Shown here: positions 1 through 4,449 of the stretch, in pieces
Layout: each line of letters opens with the position of its first letter
Position numbering within the stretch: position 1 is the stretch's first letter
Notes under the pieces: generated by a model
The model's database searches: none
Told to the model about the DNA's origin: nothing
What the model saw: only the letters and a program-made list of their open reading frames with translations
Position numbers and translations under genes: made by a program
Virus record (IMG/VR): IMGVR_UViG_2778261509_000009
Length of the DNA stretch: 4,449 bases
Strand: one strand, 5' to 3'
DNA from: a virus
Lineage: Duplodnaviria; Heunggongvirae; Uroviricota; Caudoviricetes

Positions 1-88
1 CGATTTTTTCCTGAGGTGTTTTACGTTTACGCACCTCTTTTCCTAACAAAACGCCAGCCATCTCAAAATTAGAACTAGTGTTAGACAT
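1..88 (-). CDS. hypothetical protein, N-terminal portion only (gene continues past the left edge)
   Basis: Minus-strand frame is open from an ATG at 88..86 (MSNTSSNFEMAGVLLGKEVRKRKTPQEKI...) to the window edge. An in-frame upstream ATG at 121 is an alternative start. Only a weak SD-like GGA/AGG lies upstream. Same orientation as and directly downstream of the Walker-A ORF. No family recognised. Confidence 0.3.
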   Translation of the reverse strand, partial: MSNTSSNFEMAGVLLGKEVRKRKTPQEKI

Positions 89-149
89 ATATCCAAGCCT
101 ATCTCTTATTTTAAGATACATCTACTGTCTGGTATTTCAGGGGGCCAGC

Positions 150-455
150 TCACATCCAACTTTTTTGATAAGCGGAAAGTTCTCCAGCCATTGCATCCTT
201 GTAAAGTTGATGGGCTGGCCATGGATAGTCACTAAAATTTAGACATACTGAGTAAAACCCGTTGAGATTGGCTGGTTTTCCTCTTCTAAGGTGTTCATAA
301 ATGGCTGTTTTACCAGTACCTTTTCTTCCAAGAACCAACCAAGCCCTACTTTCAATAATATCCTTTATCGCCGGTAGCTTAAAAAAATAGGTCTGTAAGT
401 CCCGATCTGTTTCTGCTGAAACTTGAAATTCTGGTAGCCAGTCTCTAATGTCCAC
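150..455 (-). CDS. small Walker-A (P-loop) protein, 101 aa; possibly a truncated or minimal NTPase
   Basis: ORF from the six-frame track. GTG start at 455 preceded by a strong SD (minus strand reads GTAAAGAGGAAAAT-GTG). Translation contains LVLGRKGTGKTAI, which fits the Walker A pattern GxxxxGK[ST]. No clear Walker B follows and the ORF is too short for a complete ATPase domain. Coding sequence is AT-rich by eye compared with the replication genes. Confidence 0.55.
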   Translation of the reverse strand: MDIRDWLPEFQVSAETDRDLQTYFFKLPAIKDIIESRAWLVLGRKGTGKTAIYEHLRRGKPANLNGFYSVCLNFSDYPWPAHQLYKDAMAGELSAYQKSWM

Positions 456-523
456 ATTTTCCTCTTTACATTACATTACCTTTATGTTTTTCCAAAATAA
501 ATCAAAGTCATATGGCGTATCAA

Positions 524-561
524 GTTTTTTTGATTATTTATGAGCTCATACTCAAAAAAAC
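524..561. repeat. imperfect palindrome: 12-bp perfect palindrome TATGAGCTCATA (539-550) flanked by inverted arms GTTTTTTTGA (524-533) and TCAAAAAAAC (552-561)
   Basis: Read directly from the sequence. The outer arms are exact reverse complements but are asymmetrically spaced around the central palindrome. Lies in the AT-rich intergenic region about 70-105 bp upstream (minus-strand sense) of the Walker-A ORF start. Confidence 0.5.
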
Positions 562-770
562 TAAATCTAATTTATCTTACGTTAACTAAAGATTTCATAT
601 GTTAGTATGCTCAAGCAATGCTACTGCTGGAGTCTGATGATATCCGTTATACACTAATTGCCACGCACACAAGCGACATCAGTTCATGGCACAAAGCAGA
701 CAACCACGCTACCTCTACCCTATGCCATGAAAATGTCAATTTACATCTTAACTAATGCACTTTAATCTCG

Positions 771-1193
771 TCACTTAAATAGATACCGAACATTTCCCTG
801 ATAAAACGACAATATGCGCTGCATAACTTCGCTCTTCCGGCACTCGCGACAGATTATGTTTAGACGACTGTCGTAGCGACGTATTTCTCCATCAGGTAGT
901 GACCAGATAAGGTCCGGATCAACCACAGCGGGTTTCTTCACCTTCGCCCTAGAGAGTTTTTTGCGGGCATTTTGCCAGTCCTTTCGTGCCTGTTCAGACG
1001 GGAATAACCCGTAGCCGGAGTTGTATACATAACCACTGGCAACCAGCTCTCTGGCAAGAATGCTCATCAGATATCTTGTCGCACCTGTTTTAGCTTCCAA
1101 CTGTCGTAATGTCTCGCGACCGCTCTGGCGCACAAGTTCGACCACCTGCTCTTTAATTTTTTCCCGCTCTTCCTGTGTAAAAACTTTTGCCAC
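771..1193 (-). CDS. hypothetical 140-aa protein immediately downstream of the replication initiator; N-terminus looks like a winged-helix/HTH-type DNA-binding region (by-eye impression only)
   Basis: ORF from the track. GTG start at 1193 preceded by a near-consensus SD (minus strand reads TAAGGAGGACTT-GTG). Begins 40 nt after the initiator stop, same strand. N-terminal stretch TQEEREKIKEQVVELVRQSGRETLRQLEAKTGATRYLMSILARELVASGYV has the helix-turn-helix look of small regulators. No specific family recognised. Confidence 0.75.
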   Translation of the reverse strand: MAKVFTQEEREKIKEQVVELVRQSGRETLRQLEAKTGATRYLMSILARELVASGYVYNSGYGLFPSEQARKDWQNARKKLSRAKVKKPAVVDPDLIWSLPDGEIRRYDSRLNIICRECRKSEVMQRILSFYQGNVRYLFK

Positions 1194-1233
1194 AAGTCCT
1201 CCTTAAAATTACCTCATGACCTGAAATCAACAC

Positions 1234-2199
1234 TTATCCCCTGAAACCAGGCGGAATTTCTGTATCCGGTTCAGAAATATGATTCACACAACGCTGTACA
1301 GGTGAACGTCCCAAGCGGATGACCAGTTCGTCCCATTTTTCGCGGAGTTTTGACGGGCTCATGATGTTTTTTACCCAGAATGGATCTCGCTGTACCCGAC
1401 CAAACATTTCGCAAATTTGTCTGTGGCTTCTGCCATCCAGCATCCGCATTGTGCGCACGTCATTGGCCCAGGCTGTCCAGTTAGGCTCTTTTGGTCGCAT
1501 GATCTCTCCATCGTCGCTGGCAGCCTGTTCGTAAAGGTTCACGATCCGCCCCCAAATCCACTGCGCACACGCCAAATCCTCCCTGCTACCCCACTGGCGT
1601 TTTTTCGCACTAAACACAACCGCGTCGGGGTTCCGGGTTAAAAAATCCTGTTCAGCGGTCTGCGGGTCCGGTTGCGAAGCTTCCGGACGAAAAGTGTTTT
1701 TATTCTCTGTAGTAATCTCTGTTGTATTCTCTGTAAGATCATCAGGCCATTTTGACCCGATGACATTGGGTCGTTTTGAACCAATGGAGCGTTTCATTTT
1801 GACCTCTTCCATCGTGTCATTTTGACCTGATGGAGCGGCGCATTTTGAACCGATGGATTCGTTCAATTTGCCACCATCTAAAAGCTCGCTCCCATAGTTG
1901 ATCGTGTAGAAATTGGTCATATCGCGCTTTGATTTATTGAGCTTTTCACAACGCAAAAGCCCCAGCGTTTTCAGACTTGCAAACGCGCGCTTTAACGTTG
2001 ACTCTGACCAGAATGGGAACTGTTCCAGCCATTGTTCCGTTGTGTTGTAAATCCAGCGAACACCATCACATTCCATGCCGGAATTGGTATCTCTCAACCA
2101 GTAATGCAACTGCTGCAACACAATGGCTTCATTTAAGCCAATCTTCATCGCAAGCTGTGTGTTTATAACCAGTGGGCGTTCAGCAAAAAGAAGGCTCAT
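1234..2199 (-). CDS. phage replication initiator (functional analogue of lambda O; iteron-binding origin-recognition protein)
   Basis: Long minus-strand ORF. The origin-like repeat array lies inside the coding sequence and encodes a repetitive low-complexity linker (SIGSK..SIGSK..VIGSK, TENTTEITTEN), as in lambda where ori sits within O. N-terminal region (AMKIGLNEAIVLQQLHYWL...WSESTLKRAFASLKTLGLL) resembles winged-helix origin-binding domains. Gene order Cro, cII-position gene, initiator matches lambdoid early operons. The track ORF begins at a TTG (2253); I place the start at the first ATG (2199, MSLLFAERPLV...), which overlaps the upstream gene by 20 nt. The start remains uncertain. Confidence 0.8.
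   Translation of the reverse strand: MSLLFAERPLVINTQLAMKIGLNEAIVLQQLHYWLRDTNSGMECDGVRWIYNTTEQWLEQFPFWSESTLKRAFASLKTLGLLRCEKLNKSKRDMTNFYTINYGSELLDGGKLNESIGSKCAAPSGQNDTMEEVKMKRSIGSKRPNVIGSKWPDDLTENTTEITTENKNTFRPEASQPDPQTAEQDFLTRNPDAVVFSAKKRQWGSREDLACAQWIWGRIVNLYEQAASDDGEIMRPKEPNWTAWANDVRTMRMLDGRSHRQICEMFGRVQRDPFWVKNIMSPSKLREKWDELVIRLGRSPVQRCVNHISEPDTEIPPGFRG
1701..1736. repeat. three tandem 12-bp repeats (TATTCTCTGTAG / TAATCTCTGTTG / TATTCTCTGTAA); candidate AT-rich unwinding element of the origin
   Basis: Read directly. Period is exactly 12 bp. Immediately adjacent to the iteron array on the side that is downstream in the initiator gene's orientation, matching the lambda ori layout of iterons followed by an AT-rich region. 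Confidence 0.6.
1748..1863. repeat. iteron array: five direct repeats of ~23 bp with core CATTTTGA(C/A)C(N)GATGGA; candidate origin of replication
   Basis: Copies begin at 1748, 1772, 1795, 1818 and 1841 (spacings 24, 23, 23, 23). A degenerate sixth copy (CAATTTGCCACC) begins at 1864. The third copy diverges in its 3' half. Located inside the replication initiator coding sequence. Confidence 0.8.
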
Positions 2200-2701
2200 A
2201 ATTCCATCCAGCTTTTTGTTGGTATTGCAGTCGATACGCAAGTTTGAAAGCAATTGCTTTTTCTATAAGTTCGTCAGTTTCACGATCCACTACGGCAGGA
2301 TCAGCAAAAAGCAGTCCGGACTCCACCACATCGCCATATTCTTTGTTTAACCCGGCGATCATGTACGTGATGCTTTTTCCGTCACTAATTTCACGATACA
2401 ACCTGAAATCATTAATCCGGATAGCCTCCATAATTGCAGGCACTAGCGCCGTGAACTTTTCACGCTTATCCCTAGTGTCGATAGCCTTCCAGCGTTCGAA
2501 TATCTTCACTCGATTAACGCCAAGCGCTCGCTGATCAACCGCGCCACCTTCATCTGTGACACGCTGAACATCGATGTTCGGGCGCTCTTTCAAAGCCCAG
2601 AATGCTTCAGTGATTAATATCGTCGCCTGCTCCTGTGTCATTCCTGGTCGACATATCCAGGCATCCAGAGCCTCACGAGCCTGTTCAGGAGTGATTTTCA
2701 T
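2180..2701 (-). CDS. hypothetical early regulatory protein in the cII position (173 aa); possibly YdaT/CII-like, not verified
   Basis: ORF from the track with an ATG start at 2701. The start lies inside the last codons of the Cro-like gene (17-nt overlap; minus strand reads AATGAAAATCACTCCTGA), and the 3' end overlaps the initiator start by 20 nt, consistent with a tightly coupled operon. Functional assignment is by synteny only. Confidence 0.75.
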   Translation of the reverse strand: MKITPEQAREALDAWICRPGMTQEQATILITEAFWALKERPNIDVQRVTDEGGAVDQRALGVNRVKIFERWKAIDTRDKREKFTALVPAIMEAIRINDFRLYREISDGKSITYMIAGLNKEYGDVVESGLLFADPAVVDRETDELIEKAIAFKLAYRLQYQQKAGWNYEPSFC

Positions 2702-2912
2702 TGTTCAACCGCCCCGCCCGCTTCGTCTTACGATATTCGTCATAAACTTTGGGATCATACTGAAGCTCCCCGCCAGATGCCTCCTGTAGACGCATCGCGC
2801 GACCTTCAGGAACCAGTATCCCCCAAGCAGCAACACTTGCCAGTCTCACTCCTGCGGCATTGGCAAGCTTTGTTTTGCTGCCAAAAAAAGTAATTGCGTC
2901 AGCTTTAAGCAT
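2685..2912 (-). CDS. dicC: Cro-like small DNA-binding protein, DicC-type (75 aa)
   Basis: Translation MLKADAITFFGSKTKLANAAGVRLASVAAW...GRAMRLQEASGGELQYDPKVYDEYRKTKRAGRLNNENHS matches my recollection of E. coli Qin DicC and the YdaS/Cro-like family. Divergent from the DicA-like repressor. The track ORF starts at a TTG (2915); the adjacent ATG at 2912 has a consensus SD (minus strand reads AATAGGAGGCTTTG-ATG). Confidence 0.88.
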   Translation of the reverse strand: MLKADAITFFGSKTKLANAAGVRLASVAAWGILVPEGRAMRLQEASGGELQYDPKVYDEYRKTKRAGRLNNENHS

Positions 2913-2925
2913 CAAAGCCTCCTAT

Positions 2926-2943
2926 TGTTAGACTTTTCTAACA
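2926..2943. promoter_or_regulatory. operator O1: palindrome TGTTAGA-cttt-TCTAACA in the dicC/dicA divergent intergenic region
   Basis: Exact 7-bp inverted arms with a 4-bp spacer, read directly. The same palindrome recurs at 3437-3454. Lies immediately upstream of the dicC-like SD and overlaps the candidate -10 of the minus-strand promoter. Confidence 0.65.
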
Positions 2944-2970
2944 TTATTGTGCGCGGGATACCTAAGTCAA
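2943..2970 (-). promoter_or_regulatory. candidate sigma70 promoter for the Cro-like/replication operon: -35 TTGACT (plus-strand 2965-2970), 16-bp spacer, -10 AATAAT (plus-strand 2943-2948)
   Basis: Hexamers read on the minus strand. Predicted transcription start near 2936, giving a leader of about 24 nt to the dicC-like ATG. Operator O1 overlaps the -10 and start site. Not experimentally supported. Confidence 0.4.
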
Positions 2971-2992
2971 GAAAAATTAGAATTACCTAACT

Positions 2993-3400
2993 ATGGATAC
3001 AAGAACCCTAGGCCAGCGAGTTCTGGCGCGACGAAAAGAATTACGCTTAACACAACGAGAAGCTGCGCGCCTCGCTGGGGTTGCTCACGTCACAATTTCA
3101 CAATGGGAAAGAGACGAAACCCAGCCAGTCGGAAAACGATTGTTTGCTTTAGCGGATGCTCTGAAGTGCTCACCTACATGGCTAATGTTTGGTGACGAAG
3201 ACAAGGCACCAGTGCCGGCACAAGAACTTCATGTGGAAACAGAGCTAACTCCCAACCACAAAGAATTGATCGAATTATTCGATGCTCTTCCATCTTCCGA
3301 GCAGGAAGCCTTGCTGTCTGAAATGCGCGCAAGAGTAGAAAACTTCAACAAACTCTTCGAAGAAATGCTTAAAGCGCGTAAAAATAAATCAATAAAATAA
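2993..3400 (+). CDS. dicA: XRE-family HTH repressor, DicA-like (135 aa); prophage immunity repressor
   Basis: ATG start. Classic HTH region LTQREAARLAGVAHVTISQWERDE. Overall sequence (...GKRLFALADALKCSPTWLMFGDEDK...LIELFDALPSSEQEALLSEMRARVENFNKLFEEMLKARK) matches my recollection of E. coli DicA in length and motifs. Divergently arranged with the Cro-like gene. Confidence 0.92.
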   Translation: MDTRTLGQRVLARRKELRLTQREAARLAGVAHVTISQWERDETQPVGKRLFALADALKCSPTWLMFGDEDKAPVPAQELHVETELTPNHKELIELFDALPSSEQEALLSEMRARVENFNKLFEEMLKARKNKSIK

Positions 3401-3432
3401 CATTCTTTTCAAGTGATTAGTTGCGCCCACTC

Positions 3433-3458
3433 TTTTTGTTAGACTAATCTAACAAAAA
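3433..3458. promoter_or_regulatory. operator O2: perfect 11-bp inverted repeat TTTTTGTTAGA-ctaa-TCTAACAAAAA (core TGTTAGA-N4-TCTAACA at 3437-3454)
   Basis: Read directly; arms are exact reverse complements. Same core and spacer length as O1. Sits between the repressor stop and the ydfA-like gene. Confidence 0.7.
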
Positions 3459-3462
3459 ACAC

Positions 3463-3491
3463 TTGCCTCTTATGTTAGGTTATTCTAAATT
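3463..3491 (+). promoter_or_regulatory. candidate promoter of the rightward operon: -35 TTGCCT (3463-3468), 17-bp spacer, -10 TAAATT (3486-3491)
   Basis: Weak hexamers (each about 4/6 to consensus), but flanked by O2 upstream and overlapped by O3, the arrangement expected for a repressor-controlled promoter. Low confidence. Confidence 0.3.
3473..3490. promoter_or_regulatory. operator O3 (degenerate): TGTTAGg-ttat-TCTAAat
   Basis: Same 7-4-7 architecture as O1 and O2 with one mismatch in the left arm and two in the right arm. Centre lies 36 bp from the O2 centre. Confidence 0.5.
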
Positions 3492-3568
3492 ACTTTCCAT
3501 CAAGACACCGCACGGTGTTCTCAGCAAACAGTTCCGCTACCCCGGCGTTAAGGGGAAATGAGGTCAGC

Positions 3569-3721
3569 ATGGATACTATCGATCTTGGCAACAGCGAATC
3601 TCTGGTATGTGGCGTGTTCCCCAACCAGGACGGCACGTTCACCGCGATGACGTATACCAAAAGCAAAACGTTTAAAACCGAATCTGGCGCGCGTTGCTGG
3701 TTAGCCAGAAACACTGACTGA
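3569..3721 (+). CDS. ydfA: YdfA-like small protein (50 aa), first gene of the repressor-controlled rightward operon
   Basis: ATG at 3569 preceded by an SD (GGGGAAATGAGGTCAGC-ATG). Translation MDTIDLGNSESLVCGVFPNQDGTFTAMTYTKSKTFKTESGARCWLARNTD matches my recollection of E. coli Qin YdfA, which follows dicA in Qin. The track ORF begins earlier at 3515, but that extension has no homology support. Confidence 0.8.
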   Translation: MDTIDLGNSESLVCGVFPNQDGTFTAMTYTKSKTFKTESGARCWLARNTD

Positions 3722-4098
3722 TGAGGCTGACGATGGAATTTAAAGATTTACCGTCTGATGTACAGAAAACAGCAGCTCATACATTGCATTCTGTGCTGCG
3801 AGAAATCGGGAAAGATATTGCAAGCGAGCCAGCAAAAGATCTGGCCCGGAAAATCAAGACCGCTTTCGTTGAGCTTTATAATGTTGGCACTGACTCTGAA
3901 ACTGTCGAGACCAAGACCGTAAGTTCACCAATATTCTCACTTGAGCCAGGCGTATTATCAGGTGAAATATGCACCGAGATTTCCAGCGAACTGCTTCCGG
4001 TAATACGAGAAGCAATTTGCCGTCGCGGTTTGGATGGAAGTTACGATCATGACGTCCTGCAAGTTCTCAGGACAATGGTGACTTCACTGGGGATTTGA
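3721..4098 (+). CDS. hypothetical acidic protein (125 aa; 121 aa if started at 3733), unknown function
   Basis: ATG at 3721 overlaps the ydfA-like stop by one base (TGATG), suggesting translational coupling. An alternative ATG at 3733 has a GAGG SD 6 nt upstream. No family recognised. Occupies the position where Qin carries ydfB/ydfC/dicF/dicB. Confidence 0.6.
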   Translation: MRLTMEFKDLPSDVQKTAAHTLHSVLREIGKDIASEPAKDLARKIKTAFVELYNVGTDSETVETKTVSSPIFSLEPGVLSGEICTEISSELLPVIREAICRRGLDGSYDHDVLQVLRTMVTSLGI

Positions 4099-4267
4099 TC
4101 CCTGCGTCCTCTAACCTTTTGATATAGCGGTCCTCCAAGAAGCGGTAAATTTTGTCGAAATCATCTTTCCCCTCTGGTTTATTCAGAGGATTACAGGACC
4201 CGTAAGTAGCGGCATACATTTCAACCGTTTTATCAAAAATATAAGAGACAAATTCTTCTTTAGTCAT
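4067..4267 (-). CDS. hypothetical 66-aa protein, convergent with and overlapping the preceding plus-strand gene
   Basis: Internal ATG at 4267 with a good SD (minus strand reads AAGGAAATCTAT-ATG). Its 3' end overlaps the plus-strand ORF by 32 nt (4067-4098). The frame stays open upstream to the right window edge, so a longer product is possible. No family recognised. Confidence 0.5.
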   Translation of the reverse strand: MTKEEFVSYIFDKTVEMYAATYGSCNPLNKPEGKDDFDKIYRFLEDRYIKRLEDAGIKSPVKSPLS

Positions 4268-4346
4268 ATAGATTTCCTTCTTGGTTATTCGGGATAAGAA
4301 GGATACCACCTCGCCTGACGTGGTTAAAAGCAGGCACACAACACGA

Positions 4347-4408
4347 AAGCGCACGGCGAAGTTCGTCTCACTGTACGGTGTCGTTAAATTTAATTCGACC
4401 GTGCGCTT
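4347..4408. repeat. 10-bp perfect inverted repeat AAGCGCACGG (4347-4356) / CCGTGCGCTT (4399-4408) separated by 42 nt
   Basis: Read directly. Lies upstream (minus-strand sense) of the 66-aa ORF. A small hairpin CCGCG-aaatgg-CGCGG at 4423-4438 is nearby. Function unknown. Confidence 0.45.
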
Positions 4409-4449
4409 CCGGTTGTGGCAACCCGCGAAATGGCGCGGCGGTAAGTATG

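What the first reader, a model, noticed from the sequence alone, without database searches (positions are those of the whole stretch)
4290..4449. Structured inverted-repeat region upstream of the 66-aa ORF at the right edge
A perfect 10-bp inverted repeat (AAGCGCACGG / CCGTGCGCTT) with a 42-nt spacer, a 5-bp stem hairpin ACCAC-N10-GTGGT around 4306-4325, and a GC hairpin CCGCG-aaatgg-CGCGG at 4423-4438 are packed into about 150 bp. The region could be a regulator-binding site, a structured 5' leader or antisense RNA for the 66-aa gene, or part of a longer coding region, since the minus-strand frame is open to the window edge. Qin encodes the DicF sRNA in the analogous operon, so a small RNA in this neighbourhood would not be surprising, though I see no similarity to DicF as I remember it.
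Basis: seen in the sequence. Interest (0 to 1): 0.4.

Follow-up and report, generated by a model that had tools for sequence, protein, structure and literature searches.

The report
RNase III processing stem upstream of DicF
The inverted repeat is the double-stranded RNA stem where RNase III cuts a prophage operon transcript to release the precursor of the cell-division-inhibiting small RNA DicF, which begins about 95 bases past the window's edge; this processing step is already published for E. coli K-12.

Summary
The three repeats exist at the stated coordinates, apart from a one-base offset for the first hairpin. Only the 10-bp inverted repeat exceeds chance. The window is the immunity/early-left region of a Qin-like E. 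coli prophage. The finding lies on the + strand dicBF operon transcript, in a 502-bp gene-free gap that holds DicF (Rfam, 72.5 bits) 95 nt beyond the window edge. The 10-bp repeat is the core of a 22-bp imperfect hairpin (4337-4360 / 4394-4417). It is maintained by compensatory change in Escherichia, Klebsiella-type, Cronobacter and Hafnia copies. The published RNase III cut that makes the 5' end of the 190-nt DicF precursor maps, by two independent calculations, to about 4406-4413, on the 3' arm. The GC hairpin is the first helix of a conserved, covariation-supported, pseudoknotted 5' domain of that precursor, which has no Rfam match. The ACCAC/GTGGT hairpin is not supported. None of these features travels with the 66-aa ORF, and no reading frame across the region is conserved. 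Verdict: real, mostly already known; the structured 5' domain may be undescribed.

The parts
4303..4336 (+). Conserved block just 5' of the stem (GATACCACCTCGCCTGACGTGGTTAAAAGCAGGCA). Its function is unknown.
Evidence: The block is conserved in E. coli, Cronobacter phiES15, a Klebsiella phage and Salmonella phage hits. It is followed directly by the stem's 5' arm in 23 of 33 loci, whatever lies upstream. The + strand MFE prefers GCCUG/CAGGC, and the C->T change in L010 keeps that pairing as G.U.
4337..4360 (+). 5' arm of the RNase III processing hairpin (CACAAC-A-CG-A-AAGCGCACGG-CGAA).
   Evidence: It forms 22 pairs with 4394-4417. The helix is kept by compensatory change in other genera.
4361..4393 (+). 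Apical part of the hairpin. The sequence is variable, with about 10 unrelated versions, except for a conserved GUCGUUAAAUUU at 4380-4391.
4394..4417 (+). 3' arm of the hairpin (UUCG-A-CCGUGCGCUU-C-CG-GUUGUG). The published RNase III cut that makes the 5' end of the 190-nt DicF species maps to about 4406-4413.
   Evidence: The RNase III dependence and primer extension are in PMC10448788. Counting 190 nt back from the DicF terminator gives 4406-4412. Counting 813 nt from the predicted dicBp start site in K-12 gives 4408-4413.
4412..4449 (+). Start of the conserved structured 5' domain of the 190-nt DicF precursor. It holds the closing-helix 5' strand GUUGUGGC (4412-4419), the GC hairpin H1 (4423-4427 / 4434-4438), the helix H4 5' strand CGGU (4439-4442), and the first five bases of the pseudoknot strand GUAUGG (4445-4449). 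The domain continues to window-equivalent 4534, and DicF occupies window-equivalent 4543-4595, both outside the window.
   Evidence: Rfam places DicF at L001 6645-6696. The + strand MFE of L001 6510-6640 gives the same nested helices as the comparative model. On 63 distinct sequences 98.1% of cells are paired, and 5 pairs change on both sides. H1 itself shows no covariation.

Best explanation
The region is a noncoding stretch of the + strand early-left (dicBF) operon transcript of a Qin-like lambdoid prophage. It lies between the ydfA/ydfB-type genes and dicF-dicB.

The 10-bp inverted repeat is the core of an 81-nt hairpin (4337-4417) whose 22-bp imperfect stem spans about two helical turns. 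RNase III cleaves this stem. The cut on the 3' arm, at about 4406-4413, creates the 5' end of the roughly 190-nt DicF precursor. RNase E then trims that precursor to the 53-nt DicF.

The GC hairpin is the first helix of the structured 5' domain of that precursor.

Shown by published experiment in K-12: the RNase III and RNase E dependence, and a primer-extension 5' end in this sequence. Shown here: homology of the window to that K-12 region, the position of the cut relative to the stem, conservation of the helix by compensatory change, and independence from the 66-aa ORF. Inferred: that the window's own copy, which has the same arms but a different apical loop and no ydfC, is cut in the same way. 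Also inferred: that cleavage frees GUUGUGGC to pair with GCUGCAAC downstream and so close the 5' domain.
For: Context:
- Window 3900-4449 is 100% identical to E. coli B, BL21 and C.
- The closest genome over the whole window has the same layout of 66-aa ORF, 502-bp gap, then dicB.
- DicF is at L001 6645-6696 on the + strand, at 72.5 bits.
- K-12 is 94.4% identical from window 4326 onward.

Experiment:
- The 190-nt DicF species disappears in a strain lacking RNase III and accumulates when RNase E is inactivated.
- Its 5' end was mapped by primer extension, and the supplementary figure shows exactly this sequence.

Position of the cut: two independent calculations converge on window 4406-4413.

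The helix:
- The 89-nt stretch folds at -38.3 kcal/mol with z = -5.0.
- With an anchor that does not constrain the stem, seven types keep 21-23 pairs and the cdtI type keeps 15. Own-arm duplexes average -23.0 kcal/mol, against -13.1 +/- 4.5 for arms swapped between unrelated types.
- Specific compensations are C-G to U-A in the lower stem of the Klebsiella type, GCGCA/UGCGC to GCACA/UGUGC in L227, and an unrelated upper stem in Hafnia.

Strand: single-step changes give G.U on the + strand 8 times and on the - strand 2 times.
Against: - The exact cut nucleotide could not be read, because it is marked by colour in a figure. Its placement rests on arithmetic good to a few nucleotides.
- RNase III cleavage has not been tested for this variant. 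It has a different apical loop, and ydfC is absent.
- The helix is equally stable on the minus strand, and the strand bias of 8:2 is only suggestive (one-sided binomial about 0.055).
- Reviews also cite an RNase III-dependent 3' end that gives a 72-nt DicF, so more than one RNase III site exists in the operon.
- Some natural copies lack the stem altogether (L016, L064, L186, L189), so it is dispensable for keeping the downstream domain.
- Faubladier 1990, the primary source, could not be read (one search covers the related 1994 paper).
Confidence: 0.87

Rival explanations
1. The structures belong to the minus strand. They would be a promoter, a structured 5' leader or an antisense RNA for the 66-aa ORF (4067-4267, minus strand).
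For: The region lies directly upstream of that ORF on the minus strand. The minus strand folds as well as the plus strand. A weak promoter-like pair (TTTAAC, 17 nt, TATCCT) can be read by eye across 4298-4329 on the minus strand. An 8-bp repeat at 4275-4282 / 4296-4303 could mask the ORF's ribosome-binding site. The ORF is a real phage protein family, phrog_34441.
Against: The stem, the GC hairpin and the downstream domain are conserved in K-12, O157, P1 and other phages that lack the ORF. The hairpin-1 block occurs in 33 loci, and only 5 of them carry the ORF. The consensus scan finds no minus-strand promoter in the region. G.U-compatible changes favour the + strand 8 to 2. The 8-bp repeat is at the frequency expected by chance (my estimate is about 1 per window). 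A minus-strand promoter somewhere within 4268-4340 is still not excluded.
Confidence: 0.05
2. The region is protein-coding. The candidates are the + strand 76-aa ORF (L001 6382-6612), which matches phrog_8854, and the minus-strand 57-aa ORF that runs off the window edge.
For: phrog_8854 matches residues 15-63 at E = 2e-27. Several phage records annotate a hypothetical protein over the region. The minus-strand frame is open to the edge of the window.
Against: With the frame anchored on the invariant 3' arm, the + ORF is closed 9 codons upstream in the commonest K-12/O157-type sequences and 4 codons downstream in the Klebsiella type. Its C-terminal part changes by frameshift among close relatives, while the nucleotides stay conserved. 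The minus ORF is broken by a 1-nt indel in the O157-type copies, and the homologous spans fall into lengths of all three residues modulo 3. There are no NCBIfam hits. RefSeq annotates nothing here. Substitutions follow base-pairing, not codon positions.
Confidence: 0.03
3. The inverted repeat acts as DNA, as a binding site for a regulator or recombinase, or as a cruciform.
For: It is a perfect 10-bp palindromic pair in a prophage regulatory region. Recombination joints do cluster nearby, at GCGAAATGG.
Against: A 42-nt spacer of variable sequence and length does not fit a dimer operator. Hafnia and cdtI-type copies keep a helix of similar size with unrelated sequence, which argues for structure rather than sequence recognition. 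The published RNA cleavage explains the helix.
Confidence: 0.03
4. The hairpin is an intrinsic terminator or attenuator of the dicB operon, or of the 66-aa gene.
For: It is a strong hairpin inside an operon, upstream of toxic genes.
Against: No U-tract follows the stem on either strand, and the terminator scan finds nothing here. RT-PCR and Northern blots in K-12 show transcripts that run through it.
Confidence: 0.02

Closest known systems
RNase III / RNase E processing of the dicBF polycistronic RNA of E. coli K-12 Qin (Faubladier, Cam & Bouche 1990; Ragunathan et al. 2023, PMC10448788)
   Same: The operon, the strand and the position relative to DicF are the same. The arms are identical except for one C/U difference. 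The segment from the stem to dicB is 94% identical. The mapped 190-nt 5' end falls on the 3' arm.
   Different: In this variant ydfC and about 120 nt after it are absent. The apical 33 nt of the hairpin are unrelated to those of K-12. A 66-aa ORF lies on the opposite strand just upstream. Cleavage has not been tested in this variant.
RNase III processing stalks of other polycistronic RNAs (rRNA 16S/23S stalks, the phage T7 early mRNA R sites, the lambda N-leader/sib hairpins); recalled from my own knowledge
   Same: An imperfect helix of about two turns, with internal mismatches and bulges, is placed between functional units of one transcript and is cut to separate them.
   Different: This one is a local hairpin rather than a long-range stalk. 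Its 3' strand GUUGUG can re-pair with a downstream CACAAC-like strand once the stem is cut.
DicF RNA (Rfam RF00039)
   Same: It belongs to the same transcript and the same precursor.
   Different: The finding region itself has no match to the DicF model. DicF starts 95 nt beyond the window.
'dicF-like region' of phage P1 downstream of the C1-controlled Pban promoter (annotation of NC_005856)
   Same: P1 carries the same structured domain, with compensatory changes in four helices, followed by an intrinsic terminator.
   Different: P1 lacks the RNase III stem. There the domain starts about 36 nt after the promoter, so the roughly 190-nt RNA would be a primary transcript. The downstream seed region is unrelated to DicF.

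Membership tests
RNase III processing site of the DicF precursor (dicBF operon) | Lies on the dicB-operon strand, between the promoter-proximal small genes and dicF | tested here: met
   Annotation and Rfam place dicA-like, ydfA-like, the gap, DicF and dicB on the + strand.
RNase III processing site of the DicF precursor (dicBF operon) | Homologous to the K-12 sequence in which the RNase III-dependent 5' end was mapped | tested here: met
   It is 94.4% identical to K-12 from window 4326 onward. It is the same sequence as Fig. S1B of PMC10448788.
RNase III processing site of the DicF precursor (dicBF operon) | A double-stranded RNA helix of about 20 bp or more at the mapped end | tested here: met
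   The helix has 22 pairs, 4337-4360 with 4394-4417. The mapped end falls at 4406-4413.
RNase III processing site of the DicF precursor (dicBF operon) | The helix is maintained in evolution by compensatory change | tested here: met
   Eight stem types were compared. Own-arm duplexes average -23.0 kcal/mol against -13.1 for swapped arms.
RNase III processing site of the DicF precursor (dicBF operon) | Cleavage depends on RNase III in the strain that carries this variant | not testable with these tools
   This needs Northern blotting or primer extension in wild-type and rnc-deficient backgrounds.
DicF sRNA (Rfam RF00039) | Match to the DicF covariance model within 4290-4449 | tested here: not met
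   There is no hit in the window at E up to 10. The hit lies at L001 6645-6696, outside the window.
Intrinsic terminator | A G+C-rich hairpin followed by a U-tract | tested here: not met
   The scan finds none in the region, and no T-run follows the stem on either strand.
Protein-coding gene (phrog_8854 or the minus-strand 57-aa ORF) | The reading frame is conserved among homologous sequences | tested here: not met
   ORF boundaries range from 5 to 84 codons upstream and from 4 to 67 downstream of a fixed anchor. There are frame-breaking indels.
tRNA or tRNA-like element (considered for the four-way-junction 5' domain) | Recognised by ARAGORN or by the Rfam tRNA model | tested here: not met
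   ARAGORN finds 0 genes in L001 6200-7000. Rfam gives no tRNA hit there.
HK022 put-type processive antiterminator RNA (considered for the 5' domain) | Two stem-loops downstream of an early promoter that make RNA polymerase resistant to terminators | not tested
   Only the position is analogous: an early operon, upstream of an intrinsic terminator. I made no sequence or structure comparison with putL or putR, and no functional data exist.

The most novel reading that the evidence does not exclude
The roughly 125 nt that start at the RNase III cut (window 4412 to window-equivalent 4534) may form an undescribed structured RNA domain. It would be a four-way junction with a closing helix GUUGUGGC/GCUGCAAC, three further helices (H1, H4 enclosing H2, and H3), and a pseudoknot between GUAUGG and the H3 loop. 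It precedes DicF. It also precedes at least eight other small RNA-like units that have different single-stranded 'seed' regions and their own terminators, in lambdoid prophages and in the Pban leader of phage P1. Its closing helix competes with the lower RNase III stem for the same GUUGUG strand, so RNase III cleavage could act as the switch that lets the domain fold. The domain might then protect the new 5' end, position the RNase E cut that releases the small RNA, or modulate read-through of the small RNA's terminator into dicB/kil.
Probability: 0.35. Interest if true: 0.6.

Novelty: already known. Interest (0 to 1): 0.33.

Why it matters
For the finding itself, this settles the annotation. 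The 500-bp 'empty' gap before dicB in E. coli B, BL21 and C-type strains is the DicF precursor region, and the repeat is its RNase III processing stem. It is not a control element of the neighbouring 66-aa gene. The analysis also gives comparative support for the helix behind an RNase III site that, in the papers I could read, is defined only by an end-mapping experiment. If the structured 5' domain is genuinely undescribed, it would suggest that prophage small RNAs of the DicF type are built as cassettes of a shared folded leader, an exchangeable seed and a terminator. It would also offer a testable link between RNase III cleavage, RNA refolding and small RNA release.

Tried and rejected
- **AgvB idea.** The CA-rich CACAACA sequences after the domain are not AgvB-type anti-sRNAs, because AgvB is encoded 3' of PR' in the late region. 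The motif is better explained as the 3' strand of the closing helix.
- **O157 ORF.** I first took the O157 'ECs_2282 family' 66-aa ORF to be a homologue of the window's 66-aa ORF. tblastn shows it is not.
- **Rfam.** Scans of the window and of L001 5500-7400 at E up to 10 give nothing for 4290-4449 or for the 5' domain. Only DicF and a sub-threshold STnc100-like hit before dicB appear.
- **Protein families and tRNA.** NCBIfam gives no hit for any ORF here. ARAGORN finds nothing.
- **Genome-wide 17-mer scan.** It returned mostly chance hits, which is expected for 596 Gb. Only the enterobacterial copies were usable.
- **MAFFT and the H2 hairpin.** MAFFT could not align this variable hairpin, so its covariation is reported by inspection and not counted.
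- **Missing paper.** Faubladier & Bouche 1994 is not held in the library.
- **Long-range duplex.** I considered pairing between the 3' arm and a second AAGCGCACG copy after DicF. It gives only 9 + 3 pairs by hand, and I did not pursue it.

Full report
**Where the window comes from.** Window 3900-4449 is 100% identical to a chromosomal stretch of E. coli B (REL606), BL21 and C strains. I used REL606 as the reference, fetched as locus L001, where a window coordinate plus 2101 gives the L001 coordinate. The rest of the window differs slightly from REL606. The closest genome over the whole window is ETEC1738, at 99.9% over 152-4449, and it has the same layout on the right-hand side.

The annotation shows a lambdoid immunity region. 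On the minus strand are DUF977, a replication-type gene, YdaT and a Cro-like gene. On the plus strand are a DicA-like repressor, a DUF1391 (YdfA) gene and a 121-aa gene. A 66-aa ORF follows on the minus strand, at window 4067-4267. Then comes a 502-bp stretch with no annotated gene, followed by dicB, ydfD, an exonuclease, xis and int. The finding (4290-4449) is the left third of that gene-free stretch.

**Checking the observation.** All three repeats exist. The 10-bp arms are at 4347-4356 and 4399-4408, and the GC hairpin is at 4423-4438. The ACCAC/GTGGT hairpin is at 4305-4324, one base left of the stated position.

- **10-bp repeat.** It is far beyond chance: 5 register hits in the window against 0.24 expected, and none of 200 shuffles reaches that.
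- **5-bp hairpins.** They are at background frequency, with 67 in the window against 49 +/- 9 in shuffles.
- **The long helix.** The 10-bp repeat extends to a 22-pair imperfect helix, 4337-4360 with 4394-4417. It has one bulged A on each arm and one A.C mismatch. The 89-nt stretch folds at -38.3 kcal/mol with z = -5.0, and it is equally stable on the minus strand.
- **Hairpin 1.** It has no thermodynamic signal. On the + strand the minimum-energy fold prefers a different pairing, GCCUG 4313-4317 with CAGGC 4331-4335.

**What lies to the right.** Rfam finds DicF at L001 6645-6696 on the + strand, at 72.5 bits and E = 1.4e-15. That is window-equivalent 4544-4595, so the 53-nt RNA starts about 95 nt past the window edge. 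Nothing in Rfam matches 4290-4449 itself, even at E up to 10. The finding therefore sits on the dicBF operon transcript just upstream of dicF.

**Link to published work.** Ragunathan et al. 2023 (PMC10448788), confirming Faubladier et al. 1990, show that DicF is cut out of the polycistronic RNA that starts at dicBp.

- A 190-nt species needs RNase III. It disappears in an rnc mutant and accumulates when RNase E is inactivated.
- The 53-nt species needs RNase E.
- Primer extension put the RNase III-dependent 5' end 'between positions 813 and 814'.
- Their supplementary figure prints the K-12 version of exactly this sequence, from the spacer of the repeat through DicF. The cut is marked by a colour that the text copy does not preserve.

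I placed the cut in two ways. Counting 190 nt back from the DicF terminator gives window 4406-4412. Counting 813 nt from a start site 7-12 nt after the dicBp -10 hexamer in K-12 gives the equivalent of window 4408-4413. Both fall on the 3' arm, at the junction between the perfect 10-bp segment and the lower stem. A helix of about two turns with a cut inside it is what RNase III requires; this requirement is from my own knowledge of the enzyme.

**Is the helix selected, and on which strand?** K-12 and O157 keep the arms, but their apical sequence is unrelated to the window's. Across 84 viral and genomic copies there are 24 arm variants and about 10 unrelated apical versions. I scored the single-step changes in the arms as follows:

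| Effect of the change | Number of changes |
|---|---|
| G.U pair on the + strand only | 8 |
| G.U pair on the - strand only | 2 |
| Disrupts pairing on both strands | 3 |
| Repairs the internal A.C mismatch to G-C | 1 |

This is suggestive of the + strand but not decisive.

The decisive test used an anchor (AAAAGCAGGCACACAAC) that lies 5' of the stem and does not constrain it.

- The Klebsiella-type copies change the lower C-G pair to U-A and replace CGG/CCG with UUCC/GGAG.
- L227 has GCACA/UGUGC in place of GCGCA/UGCGC.
- Cronobacter phiES15 has a near-perfect 18-mer stem.
- Hafnia psychrotolerans has an unrelated upper stem.
- Seven of the eight types compared keep 21-23 pairs, and the cdtI type keeps 15.
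- Own-arm duplexes average -23.0 kcal/mol, against -13.1 +/- 4.5 for arms swapped between unrelated types.
- cdtI-type and Salmonella F1055-type phages carry a different long stem that ends at the same GUUGUGG junction.

**The 66-aa ORF is not the partner of these structures.** The stem, the GC hairpin and everything downstream are present in K-12, where ydfC occupies the upstream position and the 66-aa ORF is absent. The hairpin-1 block occurs in 33 loci. Only 5 of them carry a homologue of the 66-aa protein, and in 23 the block is followed directly by the 5' arm of the stem, whatever lies upstream. The O157 ORF of the same size at the same place is not homologous. The window's ORF is a real phage family, phrog_34441, of unknown function. 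Its promoter must lie somewhere upstream on the minus strand. The consensus scan finds none. I can read only a weak candidate by eye, so a minus-strand promoter within 4268-4340 is not excluded.

**Coding rivals.** The minus-strand 57-aa frame that runs off the window edge is broken by a 1-nt indel in the O157-type copies. The homologous spans come in lengths of all three residues modulo 3. The + strand 76-aa ORF matches phrog_8854. With the frame anchored on the invariant arm, however, it is closed 9 codons upstream in the commonest sequences and 4 codons downstream in the Klebsiella type. Its C-terminal part changes by frameshift among close relatives. I conclude that phrog_8854 collects ORF calls made over a conserved noncoding RNA.

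**The GC hairpin and what it belongs to.** Phage hits showed that the stretch from the GC hairpin to just before DicF (L001 6513-6635) is more widely distributed than DicF itself. It occurs in phage P1, about 36 nt after the C1-controlled Pban promoter, where it is annotated as a 'dicF-like region'.

The Qin-versus-P1 comparison, and then 63 distinct sequences, support a fold with these elements:

- a closing helix, GUUGUGGC/GCUGCAAC;
- H1, the GC hairpin;
- H4, CGGU/ACCG, which encloses a variable hairpin H2;
- H3, GUUGUCA/UGACAAC;
- a pseudoknot between GUAUGG and CCAUAC in the H3 loop.

On the alignment 98.1% of cells are paired, against 22-58% when partners are slid. Five pairs change on both sides, against 0-1 in the slid controls, and 21 cells do so, which none of 500 shuffles reaches. 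H2 occurs in at least nine stem versions that all pair. The + strand minimum-energy fold of L001 6510-6640 gives the same nested helices without using any comparative information.

Three cautions apply. The compensatory events come from few lineages. H1 itself shows no covariation. The energy z-score of the domain is unremarkable.

A 5'-anchored rescan shows that CCAUAC is invariant in 198 copies, so its conservation is not an artefact of my first search pattern. In every variant class the domain is followed by 20-50 nt of variable sequence and then a strong intrinsic terminator. The unit therefore looks like a folded leader, an exchangeable seed and a terminator.

The 5' strand of the closing helix is the same GUUGUG that forms the base of the RNase III stem, so the two pairings exclude each other. 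Before cleavage the long stem wins in the predicted fold. After cleavage the closing helix forms. This switch is an inference.

**Literature status.** The papers I could read establish the RNase III and RNase E processing. None describes the stem or a structured 5' domain. The two Faubladier papers, where these might be drawn, are not available to me. Reviews stress a different RNase III-dependent end, the 3' end of a 72-nt DicF, so the operon has more than one RNase III site.

**Verdict.** The inverted repeat is real and functional, and it is explained by known biology as the RNase III processing stem of the DicF precursor on the + strand. The GC hairpin is real as part of a conserved domain but is unremarkable alone. 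The first hairpin is not supported. The link to the 66-aa gene is not supported. The possibly new element is the structured 5' domain, most of which lies outside the window.

Noticed in passing
L001 6513-6635 (window 4412 to window-equivalent 4534); also L004 2490-2600 (P1), L007 2000-2110 (cdtI), L128, L129: A conserved RNA domain of about 125 nt sits 5' of DicF. It has a closing helix, three further helices and a pseudoknot, supported by compensatory changes. It has no Rfam match. It is present in lambdoid prophages and in the Pban leader of phage P1.
   Followed up: partly
L007 2108-2175; L128 1610-1710; L129 1600-1680; L004 2600-2660; classes listed: After the domain, DicF is replaced in other phages by at least eight different sequences. 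Each has a variable single-stranded stretch and its own strong terminator. This looks like a family of DicF-like small RNAs with exchangeable seeds.
   Followed up: partly
L001 6734-6742: A second copy of AAGCGCACG lies about 40 nt after DicF. It could pair with the 3' arm CCGUGCGCUU (window 4399-4408) in a long-range duplex that encloses the whole precursor. By hand I find only 9 + 3 pairs. It may relate to the RNase III-dependent 3' end of the 72-nt DicF.
   Followed up: no
window 4380-4391: GUCGUUAAAUUU is conserved on the 3' side of the apical loop of the stem, which is otherwise unrelated between most E. coli versions. I have no explanation for it.
   Followed up: no
window 4326-4345 compared with L002 1381-1520 and L003 1540-1900: This prophage variant lacks ydfC and about 120 nt after it. 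The junction lies between two similar short sequences, TTAAAAGCAGGCA and TGAAAAGTCAGACCA. That pattern suggests gain or loss of ydfC by recombination between them.
   Followed up: partly
L016, L064, L186 (Shigella), L189, L129 (around GCGAAATGG, equivalent to window 4425-4433): Several copies join different upstream sequence directly to the loop of the GC hairpin, removing the RNase III stem. The GCGAAATGG / ACGCGAAAG similarity looks like a recurrent recombination joint.
   Followed up: no
window 4275-4282 and 4296-4303: A perfect 8-bp inverted repeat is present here. On the minus strand it would pair UCCUUCUU with the AAGAAGGA ribosome-binding site of the 66-aa ORF. Its frequency is about what chance predicts.
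   Followed up: no
L001 6694-6903; L003 2170-2379; L006 2095-2280; L004 3842-3961: Sub-threshold matches to the Salmonella sRNA family STnc100 (33-41 bits; the gathering score is 47) recur just upstream of dicB, kil and tciA. This suggests a conserved leader for these division-inhibitor genes.
   Followed up: no
L128 1410-1430: The apical part of the Salmonella F1055-type stem contains CUGGUUCGAUUCCAG, which matches the consensus T-arm of a tRNA.
   Followed up: no
L001 6382-6612 (+ strand ORF): PHROG family phrog_8854 (unknown function) appears to be built from ORF calls laid over this conserved noncoding RNA region. The frame is not conserved among homologues.
   Followed up: yes
L064 4732-4920; L103 1171-1359; L123 11185-11380: In some phages the same early operon carries isrK and C4 antisense RNA genes (Rfam, above gathering score). 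In L064 they lie about 330 nt downstream of the structured domain.
   Followed up: no
window 1-455: The left edge of the window carries the start of a gene annotated as 'P-loop ATPase, Sll1717 family' in the closest genomes. Window 1-151 has no match in those genomes, so the window's exact source is not in the collection.
   Followed up: no
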